Below, piece after piece: positions 32,141-38,659 of a stretch of DNA of 64,000 nucleotides. Source of the stretch: Propionibacteriales bacterium (GTDB taxonomy: Bacteria; Actinomycetota; Actinomycetes; Propionibacteriales; Nocardioidaceae). Position numbers and translations under genes: made by a program. The notes under the pieces are model-generated. The model worked only from the letters and a program-made list of their open reading frames with translations, searched no databases and had not been told where the DNA came from. How positions within the stretch are numbered: the first letter of the stretch is position 1; each line of letters starts with the position of its first letter. The stretch lies in contig JBBQKY010000001.1 in assembly GCA_038327385.1 (NCBI GenBank), positions 4,218 to 68,217 of the forward strand, read 5' to 3'.

Positions 32141-32169
32141 TTGACGCGGGGGCGGCGAGCGGGTTTACT
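32141..32169 (+). promoter_or_regulatory. Candidate sigma70-type promoter of the SOS operon
   Basis: TTGACG (32141-32146), a 17-nt spacer, then TTTACT (32164-32169). The LexA box begins 12 nt downstream of the -10 element. Confidence 0.5.
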
Positions 32170-32180
32170 GAGGGAACGGT

Positions 32181-32196
32181 TCGAACATGCGTTCGA
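32181..32196 (+). promoter_or_regulatory. LexA operator (SOS box)
   Basis: TCGAACATGCGTTCGA is a perfect match to the actinobacterial/mycobacterial LexA consensus TCGAAC-N4-GTTCGA. It sits upstream of the DnaE2-like/DinB operon. Confidence 0.8.
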
Positions 32197-32280
32197 TCCT
32201 TTGAGCGAGCTGCGCAGCTCGCCCGAAGGCGGATCGCCGTGGCGGGGATGGCTTCGACCCCCGTCCCTGCCACGGCCATC

Positions 32281-32319
32281 TGCTGCTCCTGCTCCTGCTC
32301 CTGCTCTAGCTCCGGCTGC
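32281..32319 (+). repeat. Hexanucleotide microsatellite (TGCTCC)3 with degenerate flanks
   Basis: The sequence is tgc tgc tcc tgc tcc tgc tcc tgc tct agc tcc ggc tgc. It is in frame with the downstream small ORF and would encode CCSCSCSCSSSGC if ATG 32248 were used. Confidence 0.8.
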
Positions 32320-32403
32320 TCACCGGCCGGGCGCACGCTCGGTCCACGGCTGTCCTCCACCCTGGGTTGCCGCATGTCCGCAGGCTCTCGGAAGGTGGTT
32401 CGG

Positions 32404-32691
32404 ATGCGCCGGTACGACGACCCGATCGACGTCCGCCGCGGGCTGGTCGCGGGTCTCGACGCACCCGAGCAGTTCGTCTGGCGCGGCAGGCTGTGGGTAG
32501 TCCGGGAGGTCATCGCGCACTGGGTCAGGACGGGCGCCTGGTGGGACCAGGATGACGCGCGTGACCTGCTGGCCGAGCGCGAGGTGTGGCGGGTCGAGGC
32601 AGGGCGGGGACAGGCGGTGTCCGCCGGCGTCTTCGACCTCGCCTTCGACTGGGGCGACGGGCGCTGGCTGCTCGTCTGCAGCAGCGACTGA
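32404..32691 (+). CDS. Small conserved protein preceding the DnaE2-like gene (DUF6504-like; name from memory, unverified)
   Basis: 95 aa from ATG 32404, with GGAAGG 8 nt upstream. The sequence is MRRYDDPIDVRRG...FVWRGRLWVVREVIAHW...EVWRVEAGRG...GVFDLAFDWGDGRWLLV. In-frame ATG 32248 would give 147 aa. Confidence 0.6.
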   Translation: MRRYDDPIDVRRGLVAGLDAPEQFVWRGRLWVVREVIAHWVRTGAWWDQDDARDLLAEREVWRVEAGRGQAVSAGVFDLAFDWGDGRWLLVCSSD

Positions 32692-32708
32692 TGGGCAGCG
32701 ACTGATGG
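32681..32708 (+). repeat. Perfect 14-bp tandem duplication at the junction of the small gene and the DnaE2-like gene
   Basis: GCAGCGACTGATGG occurs at 32681-32694 and again at 32695-32708. Each copy carries a TGATG stop/start overlap. Confidence 0.9.
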
Positions 32709-35700
32709 ACCCGTTCGTCCACCTGCACGTCGCGTCCGGCTACTCGCTCAAGTACGGCGCCTCGCACCCTCGCCAGCTGGCGGAGCGGGCCGCCGAGGCG
32801 GAGATGGACGCCCTCGCCCTCACCGACCGCGACGGGGTCTACGGAGCAGTCCGGTTCGCGAAGGCCTGCTCGGCGAACGGCATCCGGCCGATCCTCGGCG
32901 TCGACCTGGCGATCGAGCCCTCCGGGCTTGTTCCAGAGCCCTCCGGGCTCGTCCCGACCATCCGAGACTTCCCACCCGACCATCCGAGACTTACCGCCCG
33001 ACCATCCGGGCTTGTCCCAGCCACCGTGAGCGCGCGGACGCCGGTCCGCGGCGGGCAATACCTCGACCACGACCGGGCGCATCCCCGGGTCACGCTGCTG
33101 GCCGGCAGCCGGGCGGGCTGGGCGGCGCTGTGTCGGCTGACCTCCGCCACCCATCTGCGCGGGGAGCGCAGCGTGCCGGTGACCACTCGCGGCCTCGTCG
33201 CCGACCACCTGTCCGGGCTGGACTCCGGCACCGACCTGCTCGTTCTCCTCGGGCCCTCCTCCGAGCTGGGATGGGCGGCGGCGCTGCGCCGTGACGACAT
33301 GGCGCGCGCGGTGCTGCGCGACTGGTACGACGTGACCGAACGCACCAACCTCGTCGTCGAGGTGGTCTCGCACCGGCGGTCCGGCGTCGGGCCCGGGTCG
33401 AGCCCGCACGCCGCGAGGATGGCCGGCGTCGCCGCCTCGGCCGGTTGCCAGCTCGTCCTGACCAACGAGGTCCGCTACGTCGACCGCGCCGACGCTCCGG
33501 TGGTCGACGTACTCGATGCGGCCCGGCGGCTGGTCCCGCTCGACCTGCGCCACGTCGACCGAGCCAACGCCGAGGGGTTCTTGAAGACCGGCAAGGAGAT
33601 GGCCGACATCGCCGACGAGATCTGCCGGTTCGCGGGTCTCGGCGACAAGGAGGCGGAGCGGCTGCTCGCCGGCACCCGCGCGGTCGCCGACCGGTGCGCG
33701 CTCGACCCGCGCGCCGACCTCGGGATCGGCGAGGTCCACTTCCCCGAGCTCGCCGTCGTAGAGGGGGGAGCGGGCACGTCCGGCGACGCCGTGCTGCGGG
33801 CGCGCTGCGAGGCGGGGATCGGCAGGCGGTACGGCTCGGGTGCCGACCTGCCGGCAGTTCGCGACCGGCTCGACGACGAGCTGACGGTGATCGGCGGACT
33901 CGGGTACGCGACGTACTTCCTCACCGTCGCCGACGTCGTGGACCTGGTCCGCGACCGGGGGATCCGGACGGCGGCTCGCGGCTCGGGGGCGGGCAGCCTG
34001 GTCAACTACCTGCTCGGCGTGTCCGGCGTCGACCCGTTGCGCTACGGCCTACTGATGGAGCGGTTCCTGTCGCCGCTGCGCCAGGCGCTGCCGGACATCG
34101 ACGTCGACGTGGAGTCCGCGCGCCGTCTCGAGATCTACGACGCGATCCTCGAGCGGTACGGCGGGGAGCGCTGCGCCTGCGTCTCGATGATGGACACCTA
34201 CCGGGTGCGGCACGCGATCCGCGACGTCGGAGCGGCTCTTGGCCTGCCGCCGGGCGAGATCGACCAGCTAGCCAAGGCGTTCCCGCACATCCGGGCTCGC
34301 GACGCCCGCGCCGCGATGCGGGAGCTCCCGGAGCTGCGCAGCGTCAACCTCGGGGAGGGTCGCCTGGACCTGCTGTTCACGCTGGTGGAGAAGCTCGACG
34401 GGCTGCCCCGCCACATCGCGATGCACCCGTGCGGCGTGCTGCTCTCCGACGCCACGCTGCTCGACCGCACCCCGGTCGAGGCGAGCTTCCTCGGTTACCC
34501 GATGAGCCAGTTCGACAAGGAGGACGTCGAGGACCTGGGGCTGCTGAAGCTCGACGTGCTGGGCATCCGGATGCAGTCGGCGATGGCACACGCCGTCGCT
34601 GAGGTGGCCCGGGTCGGCGGGCCCGTCATCGACCTCGACGACGAACAGCAGGTGCCGCGCGACGACCCGGCGACGTACGCGCTGATCCAGAGCACGAGGA
34701 CGCTCGGGTGCTTCCAGATCGAGTCGCCGGGGCAGCGCGAGCTGGTCGGCAAGTTCGCGCCGCGCGGGTTCGAGGACATCATCATCGACATCTCGCTGTT
34801 CCGGCCGGGGCCGGTCAAGAGCGACATGATCAACCCGTTCCTGCGGGTGCGGCACGGCTGGTCGCCGGCGGAGTACCTCCATCCCGACCTCGAGCCGGTG
34901 CTCGAGCAGACCTATGGCGTCGTGGTGTTCCACGAGCAGGTCATCGAGATGATCGCCGTCGTCGCCGGGTGCGGCCGCGCCGAGGCCGACGAGGTACGTC
35001 GCGCGCTCGGCGACCGCGAGGCCAAGGAGGACGTCCGGACGTGGTTCTTCCCCCGCGCCCTCGCGGGCGGCTACCCGCTCGCCGTCGTCTCGCGGGTGTG
35101 GGAGGTACTCGAGGCGTTCGCCTCGTTCGGTTTCTGCAAGGCCCACGCCGCGGCCTTCGCGCTGCCCACGTTCCAGTCGGCGTGGCTGAAGGCGCACCAC
35201 CCTGCCGCGTTCCTCGCCGGCGTGCTCACCCACGACCCCGGCATGTACCCCAAGCGGCTGATCCTCGACGACGCCCGCCACTTCGGGATCGCCGTGCTGC
35301 CGCTCGACGTCAACACCTCCGACGACGTCTACCGCGTCGAGCGGCGGGGCGGGCGCTCTCCGTCAGCGGCAGGGGCCGAGGCTGCGTCGGACGGCATCCG
35401 GCTGGCGCTGAACGAGGTCAAGGGCATCAGCGCAGCCGAGGTCGCCAGGATCACCGCCGCCCGGCCGTTCTGCTCGCTGACCGACCTGTGGCAGCGGGCG
35501 CGGGTGTCTCGCCCGGTCGCGGAGCGGCTGGTGCTGGCCGGTGCCCTCGACTCCCTCTACGGCATCGGTTCTGCGAACCAGTCGTTCGGATCTTCAGTGC
35601 CGGTACGACGGCGGGGCACCGTCACCCGCCGTGACCTGCTGCTGCAGGTGGCGGAGCTCGACAGGTGGACCCGCGCCACCGACCGGGCGGTCCGGGCCGC

Positions 35701-36571
35701 GTCGCCACGGTCGCCGAGGTCGGCGCGAAGCAAGTCTGCCGTCCCGCTCTCGCTCGGGCAGGGCAGCGCGGCCGGCTGGGCCGACGGACTGGCGGGGAGT
35801 CGGAGCGGCTTGCCCACAGACCCGCGACTGCTGGCGGCTGCCCAGTCGCAGGGCCCGCTGCCGGTGGACCCGGTCACCGCCGTCCAGCTCACTCTCGACC
35901 TCGACGACGTGCCGGCGCTCGCCGAGCCGTCCGGGCTGCCGGAGATGTCCGGCGCCGAGCGGGTGCGGGCGGAGCTCGAGGTGCTCGGCCTCGACATCAG
36001 CCATCATGCGATGGACTGCTACGCCCCGATGCTCGACGAGCTCGCCGTCACAAGGTCGCGCGACCTGCTGAGGCAGCGCAACCAGTCGGAGGTGCTGGTC
36101 GCCGGGGTCAAGGTGGCCACCCAGACGCCGCCCGTGCGCTCCGGACGACGGGTTGTCTTCCTGACCCTCGACGACGGCACCGGGCCGGTCGACGCCACGT
36201 TCTTCGAGGACGTCCAGGGGCCTTATGCCGCCACGATCTTCCACTCCTGGCTGCTGGTCGTGCGAGGAGTGCTGCGTCGTACCGGGCCGCGGGGAGTCTC
36301 GATGCGCGCCACCGGCTGCTGGGAGCTTCCCGAGCTGTACGCCGTGTGGCAGTCGAACGGGATCGCGGGAGTCCGCGACGCCATCGCCGCGGTGCCTGCC
36401 GGCTTTGCGGACCAGCCAGCCGGGTCTGCAGAGGCACCGCCCAACCGGGTCCTCGTGCATCCCAGTGGCTTCCGGCAGTCGCCGTACGCCGACATCCGAC
36501 CGGCCGGTGTGGACACGAAGACGGCGCCACGCAAGCTGTGGCACTCGAGCCCGGGCAGCGCGGGCGGCTGA
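32705..36571 (+). CDS. dnaE2: DNA polymerase III alpha-subunit homolog of the DnaE2 (error-prone) type, with an atypical PHP domain
   Basis: 1288 aa from ATG 32705. The N-terminus is FVHLHVASGYSLKYGASHPRQLAERAAEAEMDALALTDRDGVYGAVRFAKA, which is DnaE2-like rather than DnaE1-like. The polymerase core includes LLKLDVLGIRM, GCFQIESPGQRE, ISLFRPGP and FGFCKAHAAAFALPTFQSAWLKAHHPAAF. A LexA box lies upstream. Confidence 0.8.
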   Translation: MDPFVHLHVASGYSLKYGASHPRQLAERAAEAEMDALALTDRDGVYGAVRFAKACSANGIRPILGVDLAIEPSGLVPEPSGLVPTIRDFPPDHPRLTARPSGLVPATVSARTPVRGGQYLDHDRAHPRVTLLAGSRAGWAALCRLTSATHLRGERSVPVTTRGLVADHLSGLDSGTDLLVLLGPSSELGWAAALRRDDMARAVLRDWYDVTERTNLVVEVVSHRRSGVGPGSSPHAARMAGVAASAGCQLVLTNEVRYVDRADAPVVDVLDAARRLVPLDLRHVDRANAEGFLKTGKEMADIADEICRFAGLGDKEAERLLAGTRAVADRCALDPRADLGIGEVHFPELAVVEGGAGTSGDAVLRARCEAGIGRRYGSGADLPAVRDRLDDELTVIGGLGYATYFLTVADVVDLVRDRGIRTAARGSGAGSLVNYLLGVSGVDPLRYGLLMERFLSPLRQALPDIDVDVESARRLEIYDAILERYGGERCACVSMMDTYRVRHAIRDVGAALGLPPGEIDQLAKAFPHIRARDARAAMRELPELRSVNLGEGRLDLLFTLVEKLDGLPRHIAMHPCGVLLSDATLLDRTPVEASFLGYPMSQFDKEDVEDLGLLKLDVLGIRMQSAMAHAVAEVARVGGPVIDLDDEQQVPRDDPATYALIQSTRTLGCFQIESPGQRELVGKFAPRGFEDIIIDISLFRPGPVKSDMINPFLRVRHGWSPAEYLHPDLEPVLEQTYGVVVFHEQVIEMIAVVAGCGRAEADEVRRALGDREAKEDVRTWFFPRALAGGYPLAVVSRVWEVLEAFASFGFCKAHAAAFALPTFQSAWLKAHHPAAFLAGVLTHDPGMYPKRLILDDARHFGIAVLPLDVNTSDDVYRVERRGGRSPSAAGAEAASDGIRLALNEVKGISAAEVARITAARPFCSLTDLWQRARVSRPVAERLVLAGALDSLYGIGSANQSFGSSVPVRRRGTVTRRDLLLQVAELDRWTRATDRAVRAASPRSPRSARSKSAVPLSLGQGSAAGWADGLAGSRSGLPTDPRLLAAAQSQGPLPVDPVTAVQLTLDLDDVPALAEPSGLPEMSGAERVRAELEVLGLDISHHAMDCYAPMLDELAVTRSRDLLRQRNQSEVLVAGVKVATQTPPVRSGRRVVFLTLDDGTGPVDATFFEDVQGPYAATIFHSWLLVVRGVLRRTGPRGVSMRATGCWELPELYAVWQSNGIAGVRDAIAAVPAGFADQPAGSAEAPPNRVLVHPSGFRQSPYADIRPAGVDTKTAPRKLWHSSPGSAGG
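32915..33022 (+). repeat. Five degenerate 21/22-nt tandem repeats inside the DnaE2-like coding sequence
   Basis: The units are agccctccgggcttgttccag / agccctccgggctcgtcccg / accatccgagacttcccacccg / accatccgagacttaccgcccg / accatccgggcttgtcccagcc. They are translated as EPSGLVP EPSGLVP TIRDFPP DHPRLTA RPSGLVP. Confidence 0.85.
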
Positions 36572-36649
36572 CGGAGGAGCAGTGGCGAGGCAGACACTAG
36601 GGTTGGGGGACCAGGCTCCCAGCGGCCCGCCCGGTGAAGGAGTCGGCTC

Positions 36650-37372
36650 ATGGCAGCGCCTCGGCACAGCGTCCTGCCGGCCCCGATCGTGTGGGACGGC
36701 CTGCGCTCCGTGCTCCAACCCGGCCAGTCCGGAGAGCCGCTGCATGTCGTCGATCTCGGCGGCGGTACCGGCGGACTCGCCGTCGCTGTCGCGCAGCTCG
36801 GTCACCGGGTCACCGTCGTCGACCCGAGCCCGGACGCCCTCGCCGCGCTGGAGCGCCGGGCAGCCGAGGAAGGTGTCTCGGCGCTGGTCCACGGCGTCAT
36901 CGGCGATGCCGACACCCTTGCCGAGCTGGTGGGTACGGCGAGCGCCGACGTGGTCGTGTGCCACGGGGTCCTCGAGGTTGTCGACGAGCCGGCGCAGGCG
37001 CTGCTCGCCGCCGCCGCCGTCCTGCGCAAGGGCGGGCACCTCAGCGTGCTGGTCACCCAGCAGTCCGGAGCGGTGCTCGCACGGGTGCTGGCCGGGCACC
37101 TTGACGAGGCGGCGACGATGCTGCAGTCCGACGGCGACACGGTGCCGAGACGGTTCACCCGCCGTCAGCTCGAGGAGCTTGCGGCGGCTGCTGGCTTCAC
37201 CGTGGGCGACGTGCGGGGAGTGCGGATGTTCACCGACCACGTCGGCAGTCGCGCCGTCGACGCGCAGCCAGGGGCAGCGACGCTGCTGGCGGAGCTGGAG
37301 ATCGCCGTCTGCGCCGATGCCGACTTCCTGCCGATCGCGACCCAGCTGCACCTGTTGGCCCGTCGTCACTGA
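36650..37372 (+). CDS. Class I SAM-dependent methyltransferase (Methyltransf_11/25-like)
   Basis: 240 aa. Motif I is VVDLGGGTGGLAVAVAQLGHRVTVVDPS, followed by VVVCHGVLEVV and LRKGGHLSVLV. I saw no DPPY/NPPY-type DNA methyltransferase motif. Confidence 0.75.
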   Translation: MAAPRHSVLPAPIVWDGLRSVLQPGQSGEPLHVVDLGGGTGGLAVAVAQLGHRVTVVDPSPDALAALERRAAEEGVSALVHGVIGDADTLAELVGTASADVVVCHGVLEVVDEPAQALLAAAAVLRKGGHLSVLVTQQSGAVLARVLAGHLDEAATMLQSDGDTVPRRFTRRQLEELAAAAGFTVGDVRGVRMFTDHVGSRAVDAQPGAATLLAELEIAVCADADFLPIATQLHLLARRH

Positions 37373-37459
37373 GCCGGATCTCGAGGCCGGGTGCGGGTCC
37401 GGCGAGCCGACGCCACCGACCCCGCCGACCCCGCCGACCCCGAGCCGGTCGGGGGCCGG

Positions 37460-38659
37460 ATGACCACCACCGACGCTGCCGGGTGCACCATCCTGCACGT
37501 CGACATGGACGCGTTCTATGTCGGTGTGGCGATCCGGGACAGACCGGAGTTGCAGGGGCTGCCGGTCGTCGTCGGCGGCGGTGACCGTGGGGTGGTGCTG
37601 TCTGCGTCGTATGCCGCCCGGACGTTCGGGATCCACTCGGCGATGTCGATGACGCGGGCCCGGCGGATGTGTCCACAGGCAGTGGTGGTCCACCCTGACT
37701 ACGACGAGCTGAGCGCCGTCTCCACCGCCGTCATGGAGACGTTCCGCAGTGTCACGCCGTTGGTGGAGGCGCTGTCGATGGACGAGGCGTTCCTCGACGT
37801 CACCGGCTCGCTGCGCCGGTTCCCCTCTGCCGTCGCCGTCGGCGAGCACCTGCGGGCCCGGATCGCCGACGAGCAGCGGATCACCTGCTCGGTGGGCGTC
37901 TCTACCACTACCCAGCTCGCCAAGCTCGCCTCCCGGCAGGCCAAGCCCGACGGGCTGGTCGTCGTACCGCCTACCGAGGTGACGGCGTTCCTGCACCCGC
38001 TGGCGGTGGACGCGCTGTGGGGGGTGGGGGAGAAGACCGCCGAGCAGCTCCACCGGCTGGGGTTACGCACCGTCGGCGACCTCGCGCACACTCCGGTCGC
38101 CACCCTTCAGCGGGCGCTCGGGCCGCTGCTCGGCGCCCGGTTGCATGCGCTCGCCTGGGGCGACACCGACCGCCCGGTGACCGCTCGACGGGGTCCGGAC
38201 GAGCCCGACCACAGCATCGGGGCAGACGAGACGTTCGGCCGCGACACCGACGACCCTGCGGTAGTCGCGCGCGAGCTGCTGCGGCTGGCCCGGAAGGTCG
38301 GCTCCCGGATGCGGACCGCAGGCATGGCAGGGCGCACCGTCGTGCTCAAGGTGAGGTTCGCCGACTTCACCACGATCACCCGGTCCCGCACGCTGTGCGA
38401 GGCGACCAGCCTGACGACCGAGATCTACGACGTCGCTCTCGCGCTGTTCGGTGCACTGGGCCTGCAGCGGGCGCGGATACGCCTGGTCGGCGTCCGGGTG
38501 CAAGGCCTTGTCGACGCGGCGTCAGCGCCTCGCCAGCTGCTGCTGGGCGCTCGCGAGCACGGCTGGGAGGACGCGGAGCGGGCGGTCGACAGGGCCACCT
38601 ACCGATTCGGCTCGGAGGCGGTGCTGCCCGCCGCGTTGCTGGGCGGACGACGCCCGTGA
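37460..38659 (+). CDS. dinB: DNA polymerase IV (Y-family, DinB) with intact catalytic acidic residues
   Basis: 399 aa from ATG 37460. ILHVDMDAFYVGVAIRD and LSMDEAFLDVTG are the catalytic D, D and E motifs. SVGVSTTTQLAKLASRQAKPDG is also present. GTG 37391 is an alternative start. Confidence 0.85.
   Translation: MTTTDAAGCTILHVDMDAFYVGVAIRDRPELQGLPVVVGGGDRGVVLSASYAARTFGIHSAMSMTRARRMCPQAVVVHPDYDELSAVSTAVMETFRSVTPLVEALSMDEAFLDVTGSLRRFPSAVAVGEHLRARIADEQRITCSVGVSTTTQLAKLASRQAKPDGLVVVPPTEVTAFLHPLAVDALWGVGEKTAEQLHRLGLRTVGDLAHTPVATLQRALGPLLGARLHALAWGDTDRPVTARRGPDEPDHSIGADETFGRDTDDPAVVARELLRLARKVGSRMRTAGMAGRTVVLKVRFADFTTITRSRTLCEATSLTTEIYDVALALFGALGLQRARIRLVGVRVQGLVDAASAPRQLLLGAREHGWEDAERAVDRATYRFGSEAVLPAALLGGRRP

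What the first reader, a model, noticed from the sequence alone, without database searches (positions are those of the whole stretch)
32141..38659. LexA-controlled four-gene operon: small DUF6504-like protein, DnaE2-like polymerase, SAM methyltransferase and active DinB, with no ImuA'/ImuB
A TTGACG-N17-TTTACT promoter is followed 12 nt later by a perfect SOS box (TCGAACATGCGTTCGA, 32181-32196). Four tightly spaced same-strand genes follow. The canonical bacterial SOS mutasome is imuA(')-imuB-dnaE2, in which ImuB is a catalytically dead Y-family adaptor. Here no ImuA' or ImuB gene is present. The Y-family member retains the catalytic DMDAFY and MDEAFLD motifs. A 95-aa protein of unknown function occupies the position upstream of the C-family polymerase, stop/start coupled to it. 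A class I methyltransferase sits between the two polymerases. This may be a non-canonical damage-inducible translesion or mutagenesis module, with the small protein as a possible adaptor. I cannot tell from the sequence alone whether the arrangement is already described.
Basis: partly seen in the sequence, partly recalled or inferred. Interest (0 to 1): 0.7.

Follow-up and report, generated by a model that had tools for sequence, protein, structure and literature searches.

The report
SOS-controlled split-ImuB mutasome operon
This is a damage-inducible operon for an error-prone DNA-copying complex of a kind predicted by comparative genomics in 2026, and its relatives also share an undescribed methyltransferase gene and a conserved RNA hairpin in the leader.

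Summary
A perfect actinobacterial LexA box (32181-32196) precedes four co-oriented genes: a 95-aa DUF6504 protein, a 1288-aa C-family polymerase, a class I SAM methyltransferase and a catalytically intact DinB.

The arrangement is already described. Timinskas et al. (NAR 2026, PMC12926913) define a "DnaE2B-PolY-[ImuB-C]-RecA" module found only in Actinobacteria and modelled it for Nocardioides euryhalodurans. The window proteins are 50-66% identical to that example.

The small protein is the free-standing homolog of the ImuB C-terminal domain. "No ImuB" is therefore only half right.

The LexA box has no mismatch in 82 of 84 related loci. Gene order is conserved across three actinobacterial orders.

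Four things are not in that paper:
- A methyltransferase sits between the two polymerase genes in 63 of 68 complete loci.
- A HEPN-like gene is present in most relatives but absent here.
- A PafBC-type promoter motif occurs in 46 of 82 relatives but is absent here.
- A covarying leader hairpin (32239-32273) has an invariant TCGACCC loop and matches no Rfam family.

Verdict: a new member of a known but experimentally untested kind, with some new side observations.

The parts
32141..32169 (+). Promoter-like TTGACG-N17-TTTACT
   Evidence: Read directly from the sequence. It is conserved as TTGACG-N17-TT(T/A)ACT in the closest relatives L001, L003 and L005-L010. The generic sigma-70 scan does not call it. 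Unlike 46 of 82 relatives, it lacks the PafBC -26 element TGTCGG.
32181..32196 (.). LexA (SOS) box TCGAACATGCGTTCGA
   Evidence: It is the only perfect match in the window. A 0-mismatch box occurs at the same place in 82 of 84 related loci, against 0 of 281 random windows. It lies 8-12 nt downstream of the -10 element in relatives.
32199..32228 (+). First leader hairpin, specific to the window's clade
   Evidence: Predicted in the minimum-free-energy and centroid folds. Relatives of the window's clade have a hairpin here with loop GTTTCGCGGC and differing stems. No formal covariation test was done.
32239..32273 (+). Conserved leader hairpin: 12-bp stem, 11-nt loop GCTTCGACCCC with invariant TCGACCC
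   Evidence: Across 74 distinct loci, 96.5% of cells are paired and 10 of 12 pairs show compensatory changes. None of 500 shuffles reach this, and slid controls give 45-59% paired. A covariance model finds it once per locus, only at this place, in 1.3 Mb. No Rfam family matches.
32404..32691 (+). Standalone ImuB-C protein (Pfam DUF6504), 95 aa
   Evidence: PF20114 E=8e-19. It is 50% identical to the N. euryhalodurans ImuB-C QBR94233. A family profile hits the DnaE2X-type ImuB-C of K. tusciae (43 bits), D. deserti (31 bits) and A. acidocaldarius (25 bits). The AlphaFold2 model is all-beta with pLDDT 86 and has no PDB match.
32681..32708 (+). Perfect 14-bp tandem duplication at the ImuB-C/polymerase junction
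   Evidence: Tandem Repeats Finder gives 2.0 copies at 100% identity; sequence shown. It produces TGATG, a 4-codon mini-ORF (MGSD), then TGATG.
32705..36571 (+). DnaE2B-group C-family polymerase, 1288 aa
   Evidence: Domains. The NCBIfam cutoffs for error-prone polymerase and for DnaE1 are both missed (658 bits against 939 and 1002). The N-terminal 470 aa score 244-407 bits (41-58% identity) against actinobacterial DnaE2B references, but only 92-159 bits against DnaE2A and DnaE2X. The catalytic motifs PDIDVD (D464, D466) and LKLDVLG (D617) are conserved. The PHP aspartate of the LDG motif is replaced (SLKYG).
36650..37372 (+). Class I SAM-dependent methyltransferase, 240 aa, substrate unknown
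   Evidence: Methyltransf_11/12/23/25 hits. The best NCBIfam match is CmoM at 97 bits, far below its cutoff of 366. The closest structures are 4HTF and 8JOZ (CmoM) at E~1e-18. The GGGTGG motif and acidic SAM-binding motifs are at least 90% conserved in 63 orthologs. It is 53% identical to the gene at the same operon position in Kineococcus.
37391..38659 (+). Active PolY/DinB (likely start ATG 37460), with clamp-binding and RecA-NT-like motifs
   Evidence: NCBIfam PRK03858 scores 376 bits, above its cutoff of 367. It is 66% identical to N. euryhalodurans PolY QBR90838. D38, D40, D131 and E132 are conserved. QLLLGA (residues 382-387, nt 38534-38551) and GW..A.RAVDRA..RFG..AV.PA.LL (residues 391-417, nt 38561-38641) are conserved in 63 orthologs.

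Best explanation
The locus is a LexA-repressed operon for a split-ImuB type mutasome. This is the DnaE2B-PolY-[ImuB-C]-RecA module of Actinobacteria.

**Shown here.**
- The identity of the three core genes.
- Conservation of their order and of the LexA box.
- Intact catalytic residues in both polymerases.
- A clamp-binding-like motif and a RecA-N-terminus-like motif at the DinB C-terminus.

**Inferred.**
- In undamaged cells LexA sits on the box just downstream of the -10 element and blocks transcription.
- After damage, RecA-stimulated LexA cleavage releases one transcript.
- That transcript encodes the beta-barrel adaptor ImuB-C, the PHP-defective polymerase DnaE2B, a methyltransferase and an active Y-family polymerase.
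- From the published AlphaFold models of orthologs, ImuB-C binds the PHP domain of DnaE2B. The Y-family polymerase holds RecA through its RecA-NT motif and is brought to the sliding clamp through QLLLGA. The result is a two-polymerase lesion-bypass complex.

**Additional layers.**
- The methyltransferase is a conserved but dispensable accessory of unknown substrate.
- A conserved 5' leader hairpin probably adds post-transcriptional control.
For: **Protein families.** Searches give the domain and family assignments.

**Orthology to a published example.** The window proteins are 50%, 58% and 66% identical to the N. euryhalodurans system. That system is listed as a 'good tetramer complex modeled' in the supplement of PMC12926913.

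**Polymerase group.** The N-terminal region scores 244-407 bits against actinobacterial DnaE2B references, and 92-159 bits against DnaE2A and DnaE2X.

**DUF6504 equals ImuB-C.** The all-beta model with no PDB neighbour agrees with the paper's 'novel beta-barrel fold'.

**Gene order.** Among 68 complete loci, 50 are I-H-E-M-Y, 13 are I-E-M-Y (the window type), 3 are I-E-Y and 2 are I-H-E-Y. Here I is ImuB-C, H is HEPN-like, E is DnaE2B, M is the methyltransferase and Y is PolY. The operon occurs in Kineococcus, Serinicoccus and Tessaracoccus, always in the same chromosomal neighbourhood.

**LexA box.** It is perfect in 82 of 84 loci.

**Motif conservation.**

**No internal terminators.** The terminator scan finds no excess inside the operon.

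**Experimental support in a relative.** The Streptomyces dnaE2-dinB2 operon, also DnaE2B, is induced about 6-fold by UV (PMC3273824).
Against: - No experiment exists for this module type. Complex formation rests on AlphaFold models of orthologs in PMC12926913, not on this locus.
- In S. coelicolor, deletion of dnaE2 gave no UV-sensitivity or mutagenesis phenotype. A mutagenic role for DnaE2B is therefore not established.
- I could not check the rest of the genome for dnaE1, imuA', imuB, recA or lexA.
- My own test of DUF6504 against the C-terminus of fused ImuB was weak. Caulobacter gave 7.9 bits on a truncated sequence, and Thermogutta was not significant.
- Co-transcription is inferred from spacing and synteny only.
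Confidence: 0.8

Rival explanations
1. The 1288-aa protein is the replicative Pol III alpha subunit (DnaE1), and the operon is a housekeeping replication locus.
For: The NCBIfam DnaE1 model scores as high as the error-prone model (657.8 against 658.2 bits). The closest solved structures are all DnaE1. The rest of the genome was not seen.
Against: - Both NCBIfam cutoffs are missed by a wide margin.
- The N-terminus groups with DnaE2B references.
- Only about 83 residues follow the OB fold, so there is no room for a tau-binding C-terminal domain.
- The PHP motif is degenerate.
- A perfect, conserved LexA box precedes the operon.
- In PMC12926913 every species has a separate DnaE1, and Tessaracoccus and Kineococcus carry DnaE1 plus DnaE2B.
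Confidence: 0.02
2. The genes are two independent translesion polymerases that only share SOS regulation and an operon. No multi-subunit mutasome forms, and DUF6504 has some other role.
For: There is no biochemical evidence for a complex. DinB has its own clamp-binding motif and intact active site, so it could act alone. Streptomyces DnaE2 and DinB2 showed different phenotypes.
Against: - The order ImuB-C, DnaE2B, PolY is conserved across at least three orders. Stop/start overlaps occur where no accessory gene intervenes.
- The small protein is homologous to the ImuB domain that binds DnaE2 in the canonical system.
- High-confidence tetramer models exist for five orthologous systems.
Confidence: 0.12
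3. The methyltransferase is a functional accessory of the mutasome, for example modifying a subunit, a nucleotide or a nucleic acid. It is not a passenger gene.
For: - It sits between the two polymerase genes in 63 of 68 complete loci.
- It occupies the same position in Kineococcus, a different order, with 53% identity.
- Its SAM-binding motifs are at least 90% conserved.
- Accession gaps suggest the same extra gene in the Janibacter and N. euryhalodurans systems of PMC12926913.
Against: - It is absent from 5 complete loci, including Tessaracoccus and Serinicoccus, where the polymerase genes abut or overlap.
- No defining homology points to a substrate. CmoM scores 97 bits against a cutoff of 366.
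- I could not test whether orthologs occur outside the operon.
Confidence: 0.3
4. The conserved leader hairpin is only an mRNA-stabilising 5' stem-loop or a U-tract-less terminator/attenuator. It is not a specific regulatory RNA element.
For: It is a simple GC-rich hairpin close to the predicted 5' end. The window itself lacks the downstream pseudoknot partner.
Against: - The loop TCGACCC is invariant while the stem covaries. A pure stability element would not need a fixed loop.
- In 51 of 74 loci, at least 7 nt downstream are complementary to the loop, against 5% in shuffles. The same holds in Tessaracoccus.
- Frequent G-U pairs and much lower reverse-strand scores point to the transcript strand.
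Confidence: 0.4

Closest known systems
DnaE2B-PolY-[ImuB-C]-RecA module (Timinskas et al., NAR 2026, PMC12926913; examples Tessaracoccus lapidicaptus and Nocardioides euryhalodurans)
   Same: It has the same three core proteins, at 50-66% identity to the Nocardioides example, in the same order and the same phylum. It also has an active PolY with a RecA-NT-like motif and a standalone ImuB-C.
   Different: The paper does not mention five things seen here: the methyltransferase between the polymerase genes, the HEPN_SAV_6107-like gene of most relatives, the LexA box, the PafBC-type promoter, and the leader RNA structure. It also does not link this ImuB-C to Pfam DUF6504.
Canonical ImuA(')-ImuB-DnaE2 mutasome (Mycobacterium tuberculosis, Caulobacter, Pseudomonas)
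   Same: Both are SOS-regulated. Both combine a C-family error-prone polymerase, a Y-family protein and an ImuB-C beta-barrel. The adaptor logic is probably the same, with ImuB-C bound to the PHP domain of DnaE2.
   Different: There is no ImuA'. The Y-family protein is catalytically intact. ImuB-C is a separate 95-aa protein. The polymerase belongs to DnaE2B, not DnaE2A, and lacks the C-terminal SRDF[H/R] motif. RecA is predicted to take the place of ImuA.
Streptomyces dnaE2-dinB2 operon (Tsai et al. 2012, PMC3273824; iPolY-DnaE2B-RecA type)
   Same: The polymerase is DnaE2B (45% identity over the N-terminal 440 aa). A Y-family gene lies downstream and an SOS box lies upstream. UV induction has been shown experimentally there.
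   Different: Streptomyces DinB2 is classed as inactive, and that system is reported to lack ImuB-C. Here the PolY is active and ImuB-C is present.
Mycobacterial dual LexA / PafBC (RecA-NDp) control of DNA-damage genes (PMC8635444)
   Same: Relatives of this operon carry tGTCgg(N10)tA(N3)T immediately followed by a LexA box (46 of 82 loci).
   Different: The window and its closest relatives have lost the TGTCGG element and keep only a -35/-10-like promoter plus the LexA box.

Membership tests
DnaE2B-PolY-[ImuB-C]-RecA module (PMC12926913) | C-family polymerase of the DnaE2B group | tested here: met
   The N-terminal region scores 244-407 bits (41-58% identity) against five actinobacterial DnaE2B references, and 92-159 bits against DnaE2A and DnaE2X. 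It shares the HLHVASGYS.(Q/K/R)YG signature.
DnaE2B-PolY-[ImuB-C]-RecA module (PMC12926913) | Standalone ImuB-C family protein next to the polymerase | tested here: met
   It is 50% identical to QBR94233. The paper's ImuB-C proteins of this system hit PF20114 at 56-74 bits. A DUF6504 profile hits DnaE2X-type ImuB-C at 25-43 bits.
DnaE2B-PolY-[ImuB-C]-RecA module (PMC12926913) | Catalytically intact Y-family polymerase carrying a RecA-NT motif | tested here: met
   D38, D40, D131 and E132 are present and conserved. The C-terminal motif GW..A.RAVDRA..RFG..AV.PA.LL is conserved in 63 orthologs. It is 66% identical to QBR90838. Resemblance of the motif to the RecA N-terminus was judged by eye only.
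DnaE2B-PolY-[ImuB-C]-RecA module (PMC12926913) | Genome lacks imuA and imuB and has a separate DnaE1 and RecA | not testable with these tools
   Only 64 kb is available. It holds no other Y-family, C-family or RecA-like gene.
DnaE2B-PolY-[ImuB-C]-RecA module (PMC12926913) | The proteins form a physical complex | not tested
   Only single-chain prediction was available. The published AlphaFold-Multimer models are for orthologs.
Canonical ImuA'-ImuB-DnaE2 (DnaE2A) cassette | Catalytically dead Y-family ImuB with a fused ImuB-C domain | tested here: not met
   The Y-family protein has all catalytic residues. ImuB-C is a separate gene.
Canonical ImuA'-ImuB-DnaE2 (DnaE2A) cassette | ImuA/ImuA' (RecA-like) gene | tested here: not met
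   No RecA-like gene is found in the window. The rest of the genome was not seen.
Canonical ImuA'-ImuB-DnaE2 (DnaE2A) cassette | DnaE2A polymerase with a C-terminal SRDF[H/R] motif | tested here: not met
   The C-terminus is ...RKLWHSSPGSAGG. Identity to DnaE2A N-termini is 29-31%. The NCBIfam error-prone model scores 658 bits, below its cutoff of 939.
Replicative DnaE1 | Reaches the equivalog model cutoff; C-terminal tau-binding domain after the OB fold; intact PHP metal site | tested here: not met
   PRK05673 scores 658 bits, below its cutoff of 1002. The OB fold ends at residue 1205 of 1288. The LDG aspartate is replaced (SLKYG).
Actinobacterial LexA regulon | TCGAAC-N4-GTTCGA box in the promoter region, conserved in orthologous loci | tested here: met
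   The box is perfect in the window and in 82 of 84 loci.
Actinobacterial LexA regulon | LexA binding and damage induction | not testable with these tools
   The only experimental evidence is from a relative. The Streptomyces dnaE2-dinB2 operon is UV-inducible (PMC3273824).
PafBC (RecA-NDp) promoters | tGTCgg(N10)tA(N3)T | tested here: not met
   The motif is absent from the window and its closest relatives. It is present in 46 of 82 related loci, against 3 of 2560 random windows.
CmoM/SmtA tRNA methyltransferase | Reaches the NCBIfam equivalog cutoff | tested here: not met
   It scores 96.8 bits against a cutoff of 366. It is only a distant full-length relative of 4HTF and 8JOZ.
Any Rfam family (for the leader hairpin) | Match at the gathering score | tested here: not met
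   There are no matches at gathering scores in the window. Only generic hairpin hits far below threshold appear.

The most novel reading that the evidence does not exclude
The leader hairpin with the invariant TCGACCC loop forms a pseudoknot with a downstream GGGGUCGA in most relatives. It may be a new cis-regulatory RNA class that gates expression of a mutasome after LexA release. In addition, the conserved methyltransferase, and the HEPN-like protein in relatives, may be real accessory subunits or regulators of the DnaE2B-PolY-ImuB-C complex. Together these would add unrecognised control layers to damage-induced mutagenesis in Actinobacteria.
Probability: 0.3. Interest if true: 0.7.

Novelty: new member of a known kind. 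Interest (0 to 1): 0.5.

Why it matters
Mutasomes drive damage-induced mutation, including drug resistance in mycobacteria. This locus belongs to a widespread actinobacterial alternative to ImuA'-ImuB-DnaE2 that pairs two active polymerases. That alternative has been predicted only in silico.

The work here adds several things:
- A name link: Pfam DUF6504 is the standalone ImuB-C of this system.
- A strong phylogenetic footprint for LexA control, and for PafBC control in relatives.
- Two conserved accessory genes.
- A covarying leader RNA.

Each of these gives a concrete handle for experiments in culturable relatives such as Nocardioides, Kineococcus radiotolerans and Tessaracoccus.

Tried and rejected
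- **Exact look-up of the window polymerase.** It is not on record. The identical methyltransferase was found only on a 982-bp contig, so the source genome could not be inspected.
- **Genome scan with the DUF6504 alignment.** It returned only Nocardioidaceae and close relatives among the 80 loci kept. Other orders had to be reached through a profile of ImuB-C sequences taken from the paper.
- **Thin profile comparison.** hhalign of DUF6504 against three ImuB-C sequences gave 18.8% probability, which is inconclusive. It was replaced by a 146-sequence profile.
- **Profile search of 1.84 billion representatives.** The 150 listed hits were mostly standalone small proteins, and the few longer ones were not examined. 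This gave no view of fused ImuB.
- **Fold search of the DUF6504 model.** Nothing was found below E=1.
- **PADLOC scan.** The methyltransferase gave only a generic SAM-domain hit, and the HEPN-like proteins gave weak PDC-M05B hits. These were not taken as evidence of a defence role.
- **Replicative-polymerase reading.** Rejected; see the rival explanations.
- **Dispersed-repeat reading of the hairpin.** Rejected, because the element occurs once per locus.
- **Intrinsic-terminator reading of the hairpin.** There is no U-tract, so it is kept only as a weak rival.
Full report
**What is in the sequence.**
On the + strand there are four genes:
- A 95-aa protein at 32404-32691, Pfam DUF6504, E=8e-19.
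- A 1288-aa C-family polymerase at 32705-36571, with PHP, pol3_alpha, finger, HHH_6 and OB domains.
- A 240-aa class I SAM methyltransferase at 36650-37372.
- A Y-family DinB at 37391-38659. It reaches the NCBIfam Pol IV subfamily cutoff (376 bits against 367).

Judged from the N-termini of orthologs, the DinB start is more likely ATG 37460. TCGAACATGCGTTCGA at 32181-32196 is the only perfect match to the actinobacterial LexA consensus in 64 kb. TTGACG-N17-TTTACT ends 11 nt before it. A generic sigma-70 scan does not call this promoter, and it finds no excess of terminators inside the operon. The window holds no other Y-family, C-family or RecA-like gene.

**Conservation.**
DUF6504 homologs led to 84 related loci, almost all Nocardioidaceae or Propionibacteriales. 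The same gene order recurs in them. Four architectures are seen among complete loci, where I is ImuB-C, H is a HEPN_SAV_6107-like gene, E is the polymerase, M is the methyltransferase and Y is PolY:
- 50 are I-H-E-M-Y.
- 13 are I-E-M-Y, the window's type.
- 3 are I-E-Y.
- 2 are I-H-E-Y.

Outside the family the operon also occurs:
- Kineococcus radiotolerans has I-H-E-M-Y.
- Serinicoccus has I-H-E-Y.
- Tessaracoccus has I-E-Y.

All lie in the same neighbourhood, with polyprenyl synthase and MTHFR on one side and DUF3040 on the other (plus TgpA in Kineococcus and Tessaracoccus). A LexA box with no mismatch precedes the first gene in 82 of 84 loci. None of 281 random 450-nt windows has one.

**Identity of the system.**
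No paper mentions DUF6504. However, Timinskas et al. 2026 (PMC12926913) split DnaE2 into A, B and X groups. [quoted passage not shown] Their supplement lists five such systems with good AlphaFold-Multimer tetramers, including Nocardioides euryhalodurans.

The window proteins match that system closely:
- The small protein is 50% identical to its ImuB-C.
- The polymerase is 58% identical to its DnaE2B over the 400 residues given.
- The DinB is 66% identical to its PolY.

The polymerase N-terminus scores 244-407 bits against actinobacterial DnaE2B references. It scores only 92-159 bits against DnaE2A and DnaE2X. It misses both NCBIfam cutoffs. It has no room for a tau-binding domain after the OB fold. 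It keeps the catalytic aspartates but not the PHP LDG aspartate. It is therefore not a replicative DnaE1 and not a canonical ImuC.

**The small protein.**
The paper's ImuB-C proteins of this system hit PF20114 above its cutoff. So DUF6504 is the Pfam name of this branch of ImuB-C.

A profile of 146 DUF6504 representatives hits the standalone ImuB-C proteins of split-ImuB (DnaE2X) systems:

| Species | Score (bits) |
|---|---|
| Kyrpidia tusciae | 43 |
| Deinococcus deserti | 31 |
| Alicyclobacillus acidocaldarius | 25 |
| Sphaerobacter | 19 |

Against fused ImuB the signal was weak. Caulobacter gave 7.9 bits at the right place on a truncated sequence, and Thermogutta was not significant. That last link therefore rests on the literature (PMC3765255, PMC6511836, PMC12926913).

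An AlphaFold2 model is all-beta with seven strands and pLDDT 86. It has no PDB neighbour. This agrees with the reported novel beta-barrel that binds the PHP domain of DnaE2.

**The Y-family polymerase.**
D38, D40, D131 and E132 are at least 90% conserved among 63 orthologs. After the little finger comes QLLLGA, which resembles the E. coli Pol IV clamp motif QLVLGL (my own knowledge). A conserved GW..A.RAVDRA..RFG..AV.PA.LL follows. It resembles the RecA N-terminus ...ALDVALANIEKQFGKGSVMRLG listed. This is the RecA-NT motif that the Venclovas group assigns to such PolYs.

**Mechanism.**
- *Shown:* gene identities, synteny, the LexA footprint and intact motifs.
- *Inferred:* LexA represses a promoter whose -10 element lies 8-12 nt upstream of the box. 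Damage releases one transcript. ImuB-C bridges DnaE2B to PolY and RecA. The clamp motif brings the complex to stalled forks.
- *Experimental support:* the only evidence is from relatives. The Streptomyces dnaE2-dinB2 operon, also DnaE2B, is induced about 6-fold by UV. Deleting dnaE2 there gave no phenotype.

**Regulatory region: new observations.**
In 46 of 82 distinct upstream regions the promoter matches the PafBC motif tGTCgg(N10)tA(N3)T (PMC8635444). It ends 8-9 nt before the LexA box. Only 3 of 2560 random windows match. Tessaracoccus has the same layout. The window and its closest relatives lack TGTCGG and carry TTGACG-N17-TT(T/A)ACT instead.

Between the box and the start codon lies a hairpin at window 32239-32273. 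It has a 12-bp stem and an 11-nt loop with invariant TCGACCC. The evidence for it is as follows:
- Across 74 distinct loci, 96.5% of cells pair and 10 of 12 pairs show compensatory changes. No shuffle of 500 reaches this, and slid controls give 45-59%.
- A covariance model finds it once per locus, only there, in 1.3 Mb. This includes two loci not used for training. Reverse-strand scores are much lower.
- Rfam has no match.
- In 51 of 74 loci a downstream GGGGUCGA(GG) is complementary to the loop, against 5% in shuffles. This suggests a pseudoknot.
- The window's clade lacks this partner and instead has an extra 5' hairpin.

**Accessory genes.**
The methyltransferase is a distant full-length relative of CmoM (97 bits against a cutoff of 366; 4HTF and 8JOZ at E~1e-18). 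Its SAM motifs are conserved. It is 53% identical to the gene at the same position in Kineococcus. It is missing from 5 complete loci, where the polymerase genes abut. PMC12926913 does not mention it, the HEPN-like gene, LexA or DUF6504. Its role is unknown. I rate a functional link to the mutasome at about 0.3.

**Verdict.**
ImuB is split rather than absent, and the module type is already in the literature, though only as a computational prediction. The locus is a new member of a known kind. The side findings (leader RNA, PafBC/LexA promoter layout, methyltransferase and HEPN-like accessories, DUF6504 as ImuB-C) give it moderate interest.

Noticed in passing
window 32239-32273 (extended stem 32236-32276); same position in L001-L084 and L088 8916-8952: A conserved leader hairpin has an invariant TCGACCC loop and strong covariation. 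It matches no Rfam family. In most relatives, but not in the window, a downstream GGGGUCGA could pair with the loop to form a pseudoknot.
   Followed up: yes
upstream of the LexA box in L002, L012, L020, L039, L088 and others; absent at window 32141-32180: A PafBC-type promoter motif, TGTCRG-N10-TANNNT, occurs in 46 of 82 related loci and ends 8-9 nt before the LexA box. This suggests dual PafBC/LexA control. The window's clade has replaced it with TTGACG-N17-TT(T/A)ACT.
   Followed up: partly
window 32681-32708: A perfect 14-bp tandem duplication, GCAGCGACTGATGG x2, sits at the ImuB-C/polymerase junction. It turns an ancestral TGATG stop/start overlap into two TGATG overlaps around a 4-codon mini-ORF (MGSD).
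   Followed up: partly
L002 10382-10897, L086 9480-9911, L087 9452-9889 (absent from the window): A HEPN_SAV_6107-like gene lies between ImuB-C and the polymerase in 52 of 68 complete related loci, across three orders. Anantharaman et al. 2013 list this family as lacking the conserved HEPN catalytic motif.
   Followed up: partly
window 32953-33008 (and 32283-32317): A 22-bp x2.5 tandem repeat encodes a lineage-specific PSGLVP-rich insert in the PHP domain, where orthologs have gaps. A CTGCTC x5.8 repeat lies in the 5' leader.
   Followed up: no
window 37406-37442: A 9-bp x4 repeat, GCCGACCCC, lies just upstream of ATG 37460. The DinB start is therefore ambiguous between GTG 37391 and ATG 37460, and orthologs favour 37460.
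   Followed up: no
window, whole: There are 13 sites with at most 2 mismatches to the LexA consensus, against 2.5 expected from shuffles. None apart from 32181-32196 was examined. They may reflect TCGA-rich coding sequence.
   Followed up: no
window 32340-32403: In the predicted fold, the Shine-Dalgarno region GGAAGGUGG before the ImuB-C start pairs with an upstream CCUCCACC. This is a possible anti-SD. Conservation was not tested.
   Followed up: no
L065: One related contig is labelled as a Sphingomonas paucimobilis MAG, but it carries a Nocardioides-type DUF6504 gene and LexA box. It is probably a mis-binned contig.
   Followed up: no
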